DNA from: Octopus vulgaris
Lineage: Eukaryota
NCBI GenBank assembly: GCA_951406725.2
Contig: OX597820.1
Location: 33,108,001 to 33,172,000, forward strand
Direction of reading: 5' to 3'
DNA: 64,000 nt
Both the position numbers and the translations under genes were made by a program. The number at the start of each line of letters is the position of its first letter. The first letter of the stretch is position 1. Shown piece by piece: positions 5,050-56,948 of this stretch. Under the pieces are notes generated by a model. That model was not told the origin of the DNA, ran no database searches, and was given only the letters and a program-made list of their open reading frames with translations.

Positions 5050-5965
<916 letters not shown>

Positions 5966-25961: not shown

Positions 25962-26034
<73 letters not shown>

Positions 26035-26037
<3 letters not shown>

Positions 26038-26240
26038 TAGTTTTATTTTTATAGCGTGCTTTCACTTCACTACCGACGCAGCTCTGTGTGCCTTAGGTAT
26101 GTGCTGTGATTTGTTGTGATGCTCTGATGGTTATTGTATGGAAAGTGTTCTGCGTAGGATGTGTGCAGTGCATAGTAGTGCAATTTTCTGTATGTTACAT
26201 GTGTTTGTAAGTCCTGGTGTTTTTGTTATGTATTTGTCTG
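26035..26240 (-). mobile_element. Short R4/Dong-like LINE 3' fragment in (TAA)n
   Basis: Near-identical to the 3' part of 26321-27335. Confidence 0.8.
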
Positions 26241-26254
26241 GAGCTGGCAGAAAC

Positions 26255-26320
<66 letters not shown>

Positions 26321-26323
<3 letters not shown>

Positions 26324-27331
26324 TAGTTTTATTTTTATATCGTGCTTTCATTTCACTAACGAGCACAGCTCTGTGTGCCTTGGGTATGTGCTGTGATTTG
26401 TTGTGATGCTCTGATGGTTATTGTATGGAAAGTGTTCTGCGTAGGATGTGTGCAGTGCCTAGTAGTGCAATTTTCTGTATGTTATATGTGTTTGTAAGTC
26501 CTTGTGTTTTTGTTATGTATTTGTCTGAATATTTTTTTATCATGCCTAATGCACCTACTATGATAGGAATTGTTTCTGTTTTCAGATTCCACATTCTAGT
26601 TACCTCTATTTCCAGGTCTTTGTATTTTGAGAGTTTCTCCATTTCTTTTAGAGACACGTTGTCATCAGCCGGTATTGATACATCAATTAGAAAGCATTTT
26701 TTTCTTCATGATCTCTGACACCTATATCTGGTCTGTTGGCCTTAATTTCTCTATCTGTGTGTATCGGCATATCCCAGAGTATGGTTGCTTTCTCGTTTTC
26801 TGTGACCTTTTCAGGTGTGTGCCTATACCATCTTTTTTCTGTTGTTATTCCATAATGTTGGCATAGCTTCCAATGTATGTAGGTTCCAACTCTGTCATGT
26901 CTGTGAATATATTCCTTCTTAGCCAAGACTGGGCAGCTAGAGATAATATGATTTATTGTTTCTTGTCCATCTCCACATATTCTGCAGTTACTTGTAATAT
27001 TTCTTTTCATTACATGTTTTTGGTAATTTCTGGTGGGGAGGCTTTGGTCTTGTGCTGCAATTAAAATCCCTCTGTTTCTGCTTTGAGTCCTGAGCTTCTC
27101 AACCATTGCTGGGATTTTTCTTTGTCTATTTCTTTTGCGTTTAGTTTAGTCCAGTATTTACCATGAAGGGGCTTTTCTTGCCATCGTTTTATCATGGTTC
27201 GTTGCTGTTCTATTTTTAGTTTGGATTTCATTTGTTTTATAGCTTTTGTTGTTTCTTCATCTTCTTCTTCTTCTTCATGTTTATTAGGTGGTATGATTTC
27301 TTGTTTGTATTTGTCAGCTTTTATTTGTTTG

Positions 27332-55832: not shown

Positions 55833-55918
<86 letters not shown>

Positions 55919-56009
55919 ATAAGAGTAGATCGTATACGAGTGGGTATATATTTGTAAAAAAGAAGTTTGGGAACGCCACTATATTAGATAAATTTTTATT
56001 TTCTTATGA

Positions 56010-56054
56010 ATTTTACATGTTTCGGTTCTTGAAAAAACGAACCTTATCAAAAAT
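56010..56054 (-). ncRNA. Minimal hammerhead ribozyme motif, U3-A8 core variant
   Basis: AUUU-UUGAUAA-GGUUC(10 nt)GAACC-GAA-ACAUGU-A-AAAU. Confidence 0.65.
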
Positions 56055-56293
56055 ATTACAAAAAGTGTAATGGAGAAGAAAAGTGTAATGGAGAAGTTCA
56101 TAATCGTTTCTTACTGGTCTCAATAGAATCCATGTTCTTGAAAAAACGAACCTTATCAAAAATATTATAAAAAGTGTAATGTAGAAGTTCATAATCGTTT
56201 CTTACTGTTCTCAATAGAATCCATGTACCACATGGATTCTATTGAGAAGAGTAAGAAACGATTATGAACTTTTCAATTTTTATTTTTTATAAT

Positions 56294-56338
56294 ATTTTTG
56301 ATAAGATTCGTTTTTTCAAGAACCGAAACATGTAAAAT
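56294..56338 (+). ncRNA. Minimal hammerhead ribozyme motif, U3-A8 core variant (mirror copy)
   Basis: AUUU-UUGAUAA-GAUUC...GAACC-GAA-ACAUGU-A-AAAU. Confidence 0.6.
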
Positions 56339-56392
56339 TCATAAGAAAATTAAAATTTATCTAATGTAGTGGCGTTTTCAAACTTCTTTTTT

Positions 56393-56438
<46 letters not shown>

Positions 56439-56480
56439 AAACGTTAAGGAGTATATATATATATGCGTTACATAAATAAA

Positions 56481-56708
56481 AACGCGAAAAAGAATGGCGC
56501 TGCCTTAGGTCGTCACTGGTCACGTGATAGTGGGAGGAGGGTTACAGAGAAAGAAAATTGAGAAAGAAAGGAAATGAAGAGAAGCAAAGTAACTTTTAAT
56601 TTTCTTTCTCTCTCTCGCTCTCTCTCTATCTCAATCTTTCTGTGTTACCCTCCTCCCACTATCACGTGACCAGTGACGGTCTAAGGCGGCGTCATTCTCT
56701 TTCGCGTT
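56481..56708. repeat. ~230-bp imperfect palindrome
   Basis: CGTCACTGGTCACGTGATAGTGGGAGGAGGGT is mirrored by ACCCTCCTCCCACTATCACGTGACCAGTGACG. Confidence 0.85.
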
Positions 56709-56948
56709 TCCTTCGACCGTACTGCACGCGATTTTCTGAGCCCCTCGCTCTACCCGTCCCGTGTTTATAGTCCTTTAGGACAGTTTTCATCCCCTCTTCG
56801 CGTTACCCATTTTTGTCTTGTCTTGCAGTCCCGAGGCTTTTACGCTGTATATGTATTATCATTATTAATTGTTGTCTTTGTGTGGTCCTAAGCCTTTATT
56901 CTGTTTATTGTTTTGTCCCCCGTCCGTCCACCAATGGTCTCGACTCTC

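What the first reader, a model, noticed from the sequence alone, without database searches (positions are those of the whole stretch)
56010..56338. Mirror pair of hammerheads with compensatory U3-A8 core
Both arms read UUGAUAA rather than CUGANGA. Positions 3 and 8 form a tertiary Watson-Crick pair in hammerheads, so C3G8 to U3A8 is a covariation rather than random decay. Stem II (GGUUC/GAACC), GAAA, palindromic ACAUGU and stem I are retained. Standard CUGANGA searches would miss this variant family.
Basis: partly seen in the sequence, partly recalled or inferred. Interest (0 to 1): 0.7.

Follow-up and report, generated by a model that had tools for sequence, protein, structure and literature searches.

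The report
Head-to-head Penelope retrotransposon ends, U-A hammerhead
This mirror-image stretch is two cut-down ends of an abundant Penelope-like jumping gene joined back to back, each carrying a hammerhead RNA motif (predicted to cut itself) with a U-A swap already described in such elements; the mirror layout is likely a by-product of insertion and not a working ribozyme pair, so it is an ordinary example of a known kind.

Summary
The motifs are real, at the stated coordinates. They are the 3' ends (pLTR pieces) of a high-copy Penelope-like retrotransposon (RT plus C-terminal GIY-YIG, Neptune/Nematis-type linker), joined head-to-head in (TA)n. Only the left arm is intact; the right has an A·C mismatch in stem II, and a third half-copy was missed.

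U3-A8 is inherited, not decay: 80 of 81 family copies carry it. The covariation with C3-G8 shows only between families: genome-wide pattern counts are U3A8 2464, C3G8 313, C3A8 83, U3G8 70. In Penelope-like loci of other organisms, 22 of 22 motifs are Watson-Crick at 3-8.

This is in print: U3-A8 in natural hammerheads (PMC3088659), and in Schistosoma Penelope elements together with opposite-strand pairs (PMC4209133).

The two arms lie on opposite strands, so no transcript carries both; a read-through RNA is predicted to fold into one long hairpin. The genome has 42 such pairs: 37 have the tail on exactly one arm, none on both. Cleavage is untested. The scan's notes report the same kind of thing on other DNA. 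New member of a known kind.

The parts
55913..55944 (-). 32-nt 'tail' of the element, on the left arm only; in full-length copies this sequence follows the 5' pLTR
   Evidence: (3 of 3 full-length tandem copies)
55945..56226 (-). left arm: 5'-truncated 3' end (pLTR piece) of the Penelope-like element, with a 91-nt tandem duplication and an 18-nt duplication
56010..56054 (-). intact type I minimal hammerhead motif: stem I strand 56054-56051, U3 56050, A8 56045, stem II 56043-56024, GAAA 56023-56020, palindromic stem III, predicted cut after A17 at 56014, stem I strand 56013-56010
56134..56159 (-). half hammerhead (UUGAUAA and most of stem II, no GAAA) in the upstream 91-nt unit
   Evidence: the same duplication is in L003, L014, L025, L026
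56227..56229 (.). head-to-head junction of the two 5'-truncated arms
56228..56403 (+). right arm: 5'-truncated 3' end of the same element, ending at the short (tail-less) site
56294..56338 (+). damaged hammerhead motif: U3 56298, A8 56303, G-to-A at 56306 gives an A·C mismatch in stem II, A17 at 56334
55833..55912 (.). (TA)n flank, left (likely target; boundaries approximate)
56398..56433 (.). (TA)n flank, right (likely target)

Best explanation
The locus is one insertion of a Penelope-like retrotransposon consisting of two short copies of the element's 3' end joined head-to-head in a TA repeat; each end carries the family's minimal hammerhead motif with an inherited U3-A8 core, predicted to cut RNA only as a dimer or with protein help, and the mirror itself is likely a by-product of reverse transcription primed on both target strands. 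Shown: element identity, full-length pLTR-ORF-pLTR relatives, inheritance of U3-A8, Watson-Crick covariation between families, orientation bias, and one tail per pair. Inferred: the endonuclease nicks (TA)n on both strands; one cDNA starts at the short 3' end and the other 32 nt further, in the tail; both stop early and are joined. Also inferred: in full-length copies the two same-strand hammerheads 4.7 kb apart pair through ACAUGU and cut after GUA or GUU. This copy is likely inert.
For: Copy number: 30 loci 94-100% identical over 174 nt, from 1508 candidates of which 40 were scored; 176 exact matches to a 35-nt motif, reversed control 0. Protein: upstream sequence leads into an ORF with RVT_1 (E 2.5e-8) and GIY-YIG (E 3.1e-6) and a C-x4-C-x2-C linker. 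Structure: 3 of 12 newly fetched long-ORF loci show ~500-nt direct pLTRs 4.7 kb apart, each with the motif. Core: U3A8 in 80 of 81 copies, H17 is A in 57 and U in 24, never G (the anchors favour intact copies). A sister family (50-75% aa identity in the C-terminal part) keeps the core and changes stem II pair 5 from C-G to U-A, while its 3' UTR aligns only near the ORF end and over the last ~90 nt. Covariation: U3A8 2464, C3G8 313, C3A8 83, U3G8 70, with reversed controls 28, 8, 14, 19. In 127 loci of related RTs from other organisms, 22 motifs: 19 C3G8, 2 U3A8, 1 A3U8, 0 non-Watson-Crick, reversed control 0. Mirror: 42 head-to-head against 2 tail-to-tail pairs; 37 of 42 have one tail, 0 have two (P about 1e-6 after merging duplicated loci); in 7 of 42 one arm is cut inside the hammerhead (read from the list). 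The whole mirror folds into one hairpin of -240.5 or -224.3 kcal/mol. Literature: PMC4209133, PMC8557442, PMC11167929, PMC3088659.
Against: No cleavage data for this family. Stem I is only 3-4 A-U pairs (probability 0.11-0.14 in the left arm), and the predicted homodimer forms stems II and III but not stem I. The subfamily with identical motifs and intact 781-aa ORFs (7 of 7 loci L068-L074, likely the youngest) has G10.1·U11.1 and a U·U at stem I pair 2, and fails my descriptor. The unpaired base after A9 in the published consensus is absent. Genome counts are inflated by copy number: the first 100 listed U3A8 hits are essentially two lineages. Pair counts are lower bounds from an exact pattern with 40-400 nt spacing. 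Neptune versus Nematis was not resolved.
Confidence: 0.85

Rival explanations
1. The motif is a vestigial or non-catalytic hammerhead in this lineage, kept because the last ~110 nt are the protein-binding or reverse-transcription start region.
For: Weak stem I and no folding signal. The likely youngest subfamily has G10.1·U11.1 and a broken stem I yet has many intact ORFs. Hammerhead mutants did not affect insertion in vitro in PAc (PMC11167929, part 2). The conserved block runs on past the ribozyme to the 3' end.
Against: The core and ACAUGU are kept across subfamilies and a sister family while loop II changes in length and sequence; H17 is never G; there is one double change in stem II. G10.1·U11.1 also occurs in motifs from other organisms. 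This rival concerns activity only and is compatible with the element identity.
Confidence: 0.35
2. The mirror pair is a selected functional unit: the two hammerheads act together, or the palindrome moves as a fold-back element.
For: 42 such pairs exist; 120-nt arms are 95% complementary.
Against: The motifs are on opposite strands, and a read-through RNA is predicted to be one long hairpin that buries both. Match lengths vary from 90 to 422 nt and junctions differ, one arm is often cut inside the motif, most copies are single (25 of 30 loci), and the right arm here is mutated.
Confidence: 0.04
3. The hammerhead likeness is chance in AT-rich repeat DNA.
For: No Rfam hammerhead hit; all A-U stem I; folding no better than shuffles.
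Against: 0 hits in 200 window shuffles and 2 of 20,000 UTR shuffles; it lies where Penelope-like elements carry hammerheads; the same architecture with C3G8 occurs 313 times in this genome against 8 in the control.
Confidence: 0.03

Closest known systems
U3-A8 minimal hammerheads of Cercyon Penelope-like elements in Schistosoma mansoni (Cervera and de la Pena 2014, PMC4209133; read parts 1-2 of 4 of the text and part 2 of 3 of supplementary file 2; file 1 not searchable)
   Same: U3-A8 core (about 1,300 hits there), location in pLTRs, short stem I, U-rich upstream and AU-rich downstream flanks, palindromic stem III, mostly single truncated copies, opposite-strand pairs 100-700 bp apart.
   Different: No unpaired base after A9; stem III palindrome is ACAUGU and not ACGU; stem I is all A-U; different host; the clade here is Neptune/Nematis-type by linker.
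Canonical EN+ Penelope-like elements, Neptune/Nematis type (Craig et al. 2021, PMC8557442; read the Introduction and passages)
   Same: RT with C-terminal GIY-YIG, CX2-5CxxC linker, (TA)n targets, partial tandems, inverted 5'-truncated copy, 30-40 bp tail often at one end only, hammerhead near the 3' end.
   Different: This copy has no coding part. Full-length copies also carry a ~466-aa upstream ORF; the paper's Fig. 1 legend lists an ORF1 for some PLE types, and I could not see the figure to tell which.
PAc Poseidon element of Anolis carolinensis (Frangieh et al. 2024, PMC11167929; read parts 1-2 of 4)
   Same: Two adjacent reverse-transcription start sites that define the tail, cleavage and extension of both target strands, AT-rich targets, a protein-assisted hammerhead with tested 3-8 pairing.
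   Different: PAc has C3-G8 and its hammerhead overlaps the ORF start; here it lies ~0.7-1.1 kb after the RT-EN stop and ~85 nt before the short end.
Natural core variants of hammerheads (Perreault et al. 2011, PMC3088659; passages)
   Same: States that C3-G8 covaries to U3-A8 in several natural examples and that such covariants had been shown active in vitro.
   Different: General survey; no retroelement context in the passages I read.

Membership tests
EN+ Penelope-like element | RT with C-terminal GIY-YIG endonuclease in one ORF | tested here: met
   on longer copies of the same family; absent from this truncated copy
EN+ Penelope-like element | pLTR-ORF-pLTR partial tandems | tested here: met
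   3 of 12 newly fetched long-ORF loci
EN+ Penelope-like element | inverted 5'-truncated copy and 30-40 bp tail at one end | tested here: met
Neptune/Nematis clades | [quoted passage not shown] | tested here: met
   read from the translation; flanks
Neptune versus Nematis | position in an RT tree with named references | not tested
   no named reference elements were available from the tools
Type I minimal hammerhead | core N3-UGA-N-N8-A, GAAA, A15.1-U16.1, H17, with Watson-Crick 3-8 | tested here: met
   both arms; family counts; between-family covariation
Type I minimal hammerhead | stem II closed by G10.1-C11.1 | tested here: met
   left arm met (probability 0.85); right arm has the closing pair but a mismatch at pair 2
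Type I minimal hammerhead | palindromic stem III allowing a dimer | tested here: met
   ACAUGU pairs between two copies in the predicted homodimer of the left arm
Type I minimal hammerhead | stable stem I | tested here: inconclusive
   4 A-U pairs, probability 0.11-0.14; broken in subfamily L068-L074
Type I minimal hammerhead | unpaired base between A9 and G10.1 (consensus of PMC4209133) | tested here: not met
   absent; also absent from some rows of that paper's alignment, so not obligatory
Type I minimal hammerhead | self-cleavage after NUH | not testable with these tools
   needs a bench assay
Non-LTR retrozyme | non-coding head-to-tail tandem units, each with a complete hammerhead | tested here: not met
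   arms are inverted, the upstream 91-nt unit has only half a motif, and the family is protein-coding

The most novel reading that the evidence does not exclude
The mirror is a mechanistic record. One Penelope protein dimer on one more-than-unit-length RNA primes both target strands, always taking one arm from the tail site behind the 5' pLTR and the other from the short 3' end (37 of 42 pairs one-tailed, none two-tailed; three loci pair the same two sequence variants in the same roles). Meanwhile the most recently expanding subfamily is losing the hammerhead's stem I, so catalysis would be dispensable or carried by the protein.
Probability: 0.35. Interest if true: 0.45.

Novelty: new member of a known kind. 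Interest (0 to 1): 0.2.

Why it matters
As a finding about U3-A8 it adds little: the variant and the opposite-strand pairs are in print. Two side results have some use. First, U3-A8 outnumbers C3-G8 about eight to one among motifs of this pattern in this genome, in at least two unrelated lineages, so CUGANGA-only surveys undercount here. Second, the one-tail-per-pair rule, counted in a protein-coding family with intact ORFs, gives a concrete prediction for the open question of how Penelope-like elements make inverted insertions, testable in the existing in vitro system.

Tried and rejected
Rfam: no match at gathering score in the window; only generic hairpin matches at E<=10, rejected as chance.

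Covariation inside the family: absent.

G3C8 with the same stem III pattern: 5 hits against 9 in the control, background. This does not test families with another stem III.

Expression and cleavage: no RNA holder listed (20 holders, none on record as RNA, all contigs). Contigs of 3 of 4 runs bridge the predicted cut site of L074, but contigs cannot show ends, so nothing is concluded. Four further runs showed only variants already seen among subfamilies.

Upstream ORF: no Pfam family at cut-off, no Atlas hit.

Papers not held: Przybilski and Hammann 2007, Nelson and Uhlenbeck 2008, Lünse et al. 2016. Measured rates for U3-A8 and for dimer cleavage were therefore not seen; they are known to me only through citing passages (PMC3088659, PMC3884650, PMC6765202).

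A report on this particular family was not found in four searches. The library lacks most subscription journals and repeat databases, so it may be catalogued. Supplementary file 1 of PMC4209133 and bioRxiv supplements were not visible and may list mollusc families.

MITE or fold-back DNA transposon, and retrozyme, were considered and rejected (see rivals and membership).

Full report
Observation. The region 55945-56403 is an inverted repeat between TA microsatellites. On the minus strand from 56050 it reads UUGAUAA, stem II GGUUC/GAACC with a 10-nt loop, GAAA, CAUG, UA, then AAAU, which pairs with the AUUU before the core. On the plus strand from 56298 it reads the same except for G to A at 56306, which puts an A·C mismatch at the second pair of stem II. 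A third copy at 56159-56134 (minus) stops before GAAA; it lies in a 91-nt tandem duplication also found in L003, L014, L025 and L026. My descriptor (C3G8 or U3A8 core, stem II of 4 or more pairs closed by G-Y, palindromic stem III, NUH, stem I of 3 or more pairs) finds only the left arm in the window, nothing in 200 shuffles of the window, and 2 of 20,000 shuffles of a 962-nt 3' UTR. Rfam finds no hammerhead here; two C3G8 motifs from this genome score 29.6 and 21.8 bits against a gathering score of 34, and none was listed for the U3A8 loci L238 and L240.

What it belongs to. The right arm matches 30 fetched loci at 94-100% over its full 174 nt (1508 candidates, 40 scored), and a 35-nt motif has 176 exact matches. 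Copies share a 3' end in (TA)n and are cut at varied 5' points. [quoted passage not shown] All 150 scored endonuclease hits are 89-100% identical and many lie in 781-aa frames. Named protein relatives, at 44-47% identity, are from bivalves or bivalve-symbiont assemblies; I did not determine the host. Of 12 newly fetched long-ORF loci, 3 show ~500-nt direct repeats 4.7 kb apart, each holding the motif: pLTR-ORF-pLTR. In those 3 the 5' repeat runs on through the tail into the element body, and the 3' repeat stops at the short end.

Positions 3 and 8. Among 81 motif copies in my own-genome loci (10 re-fetched loci left out; anchors allowed two mismatches and so favour intact copies; one row was mis-anchored), 80 are U3A8 and 1 is U3G8; H17 is A in 57, U in 24, never G. 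Exact searches with one position free gave 15 non-A8 copies, all U3, and 3 C3 copies, all A8. So the family inherited U3-A8 from its source and decays independently at the two sites; no covariation can be read inside it. Between families it can. With one pattern (N3-UGA-N-N8-AG, 9-26 nt, CGAAACRYGU) the genome gives U3A8 2464, C3G8 313, C3A8 83, U3G8 70 and G3C8 5, with reversed controls 28, 8, 14, 19 and 9. These counts are inflated by copy number. By eye, the first 100 U3A8 rows are this clade and an unrelated 362-nt tandem repeat; the first 100 C3G8 rows fall into several families; the mismatch lists look mostly like scattered decayed copies of those. In 127 loci of related RTs from other organisms, a descriptor with 3 and 8 left free found 22 motifs: 19 C3G8, 2 U3A8, 1 A3U8, none unpaired, and none in the reversed control; some rows are repeats of one element. 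A sister family with 50-75% identity in the C-terminal protein part keeps the core and ACAUGU, shortens loop II and turns stem II pair 5 from C-G to U-A, while most of its 3' UTR no longer aligns.

Against a strong ribozyme. Stem I has four A-U pairs with predicted probability 0.11-0.14; neither arm folds better than shuffles; the predicted homodimer pairs ACAUGU between copies and keeps stem II but not stem I. Seven of seven loci of the subfamily with identical motifs and intact ORFs have G10.1·U11.1 and U·U at stem I pair 2 and fail my descriptor. Published minimal Penelope hammerheads cleave weakly and only as dimers (PMC4209133, part 2), or need the element's protein and are not required for insertion in vitro (PMC11167929, part 2). 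I put activity of the family motif at about 0.6 and a function of this copy below 0.1.

The mirror. The motifs are on opposite strands, so a transcript in either direction holds one in sense and its complement; both directions are predicted to fold into one hairpin of -240.5 and -224.3 kcal/mol that buries the core. An exact pattern finds 42 head-to-head pairs within 40-400 nt and 2 tail-to-tail. Scoring all 42: 37 have the tail on one arm, 5 on neither (some with a damaged end), none on both. If tails were dealt at random, P is 1.3e-7, or 1.2e-6 after merging four loci that look duplicated. In 7 of 42, read from the list, one arm is cut inside the hammerhead, so the pair is not kept whole. 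The two arms here differ at 6 of 120 terminal positions and carry different variant blocks that each occur in other copies; L003 and L018 pair the same two variants in the same tail and no-tail roles. I infer that both arms were reverse-transcribed in one event from the two pLTRs of a longer-than-unit RNA, one from each of two start sites, as the two-strand, two-site behaviour of PAc allows (PMC11167929). The joining step is not shown.

Comparison with what is known. Perreault et al. 2011 (PMC3088659, passages) report natural U3-A8 covariation. Cervera and de la Pena 2014 (PMC4209133) report it in Cercyon Penelope elements, about 1,300 hits with a dedicated descriptor, along with opposite-strand pairs 100-700 bp apart. 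Craig et al. 2021 (PMC8557442) describe the inverted truncated copy, the one-sided tail and (TA)n targeting. Li et al. 2026 (bioRxiv 10.64898/2026.07.22.740005; abstract, introduction and part of the methods) link retrozymes to these elements. The 3-8 pair as a structural contact is confirmed in passages of PMC3884650. The scan's own notes hold several similar cases in this and other genomes; they are leads, not support.

Verdict. A real hammerhead-type motif and a real covariation, in an ordinary truncated, inverted Penelope-like insertion. New member of a known kind; interest 0.2.

Noticed in passing
L237:1162-2650, L238, L239, L240, L244: An unrelated 362-nt tandem repeat with a well-folding type I hammerhead that also has U3-A8 (z -1.98); looks like a non-LTR retrozyme, makes up over half of the first 100 U3A8 hits, and also forms head-to-head inversions.
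   Followed up: partly
L074:857-2254 (frameshifted in L068, L079): Full-length copies carry a ~466-aa ORF starting just after the tail and overlapping the RT-EN frame; charged N-terminal half, repeat-rich C-terminal half; no Pfam or Atlas assignment.
   Followed up: partly
L068-L074, motif at L074:5404-5437: The likely youngest subfamily has a 7-nt loop II, G10.1·U11.1, a GUU triplet and a broken proximal stem I, but a long distal A-U helix. One contig of run X11 reads A at 10.1, giving A-U.
   Followed up: partly
L074:5110: A contig of run X1 starts here behind a loose end that I recall as a cDNA template-switch adapter, and a contig of X11 starts at 5106; a weak hint of an RNA start inside the pLTR about 295 nt before the hammerhead.
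   Followed up: no
L241, L242, L266, L267: Sister Penelope-like family with the same U3-A8 core, a shorter stem-loop II and its own tail.
   Followed up: partly
L080-L109: Several C3G8 hammerhead families with the same palindromic stem III; L082 is a head-to-head pair like the one studied.
   Followed up: partly
L225:1969, L211:2216: Penelope-like loci from other organisms with A3-U8 and U3-A8 cores just downstream of the RT match.
   Followed up: no
window 56480-56709: A second, unrelated inverted repeat (about 80% self-complementary over 230 nt) directly right of the finding, single in the window.
   Followed up: no
window 25970-26527: Tandem repeat with a 287-nt period, 1.9 copies, 96% matches, rich in (TTA)n.
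   Followed up: no
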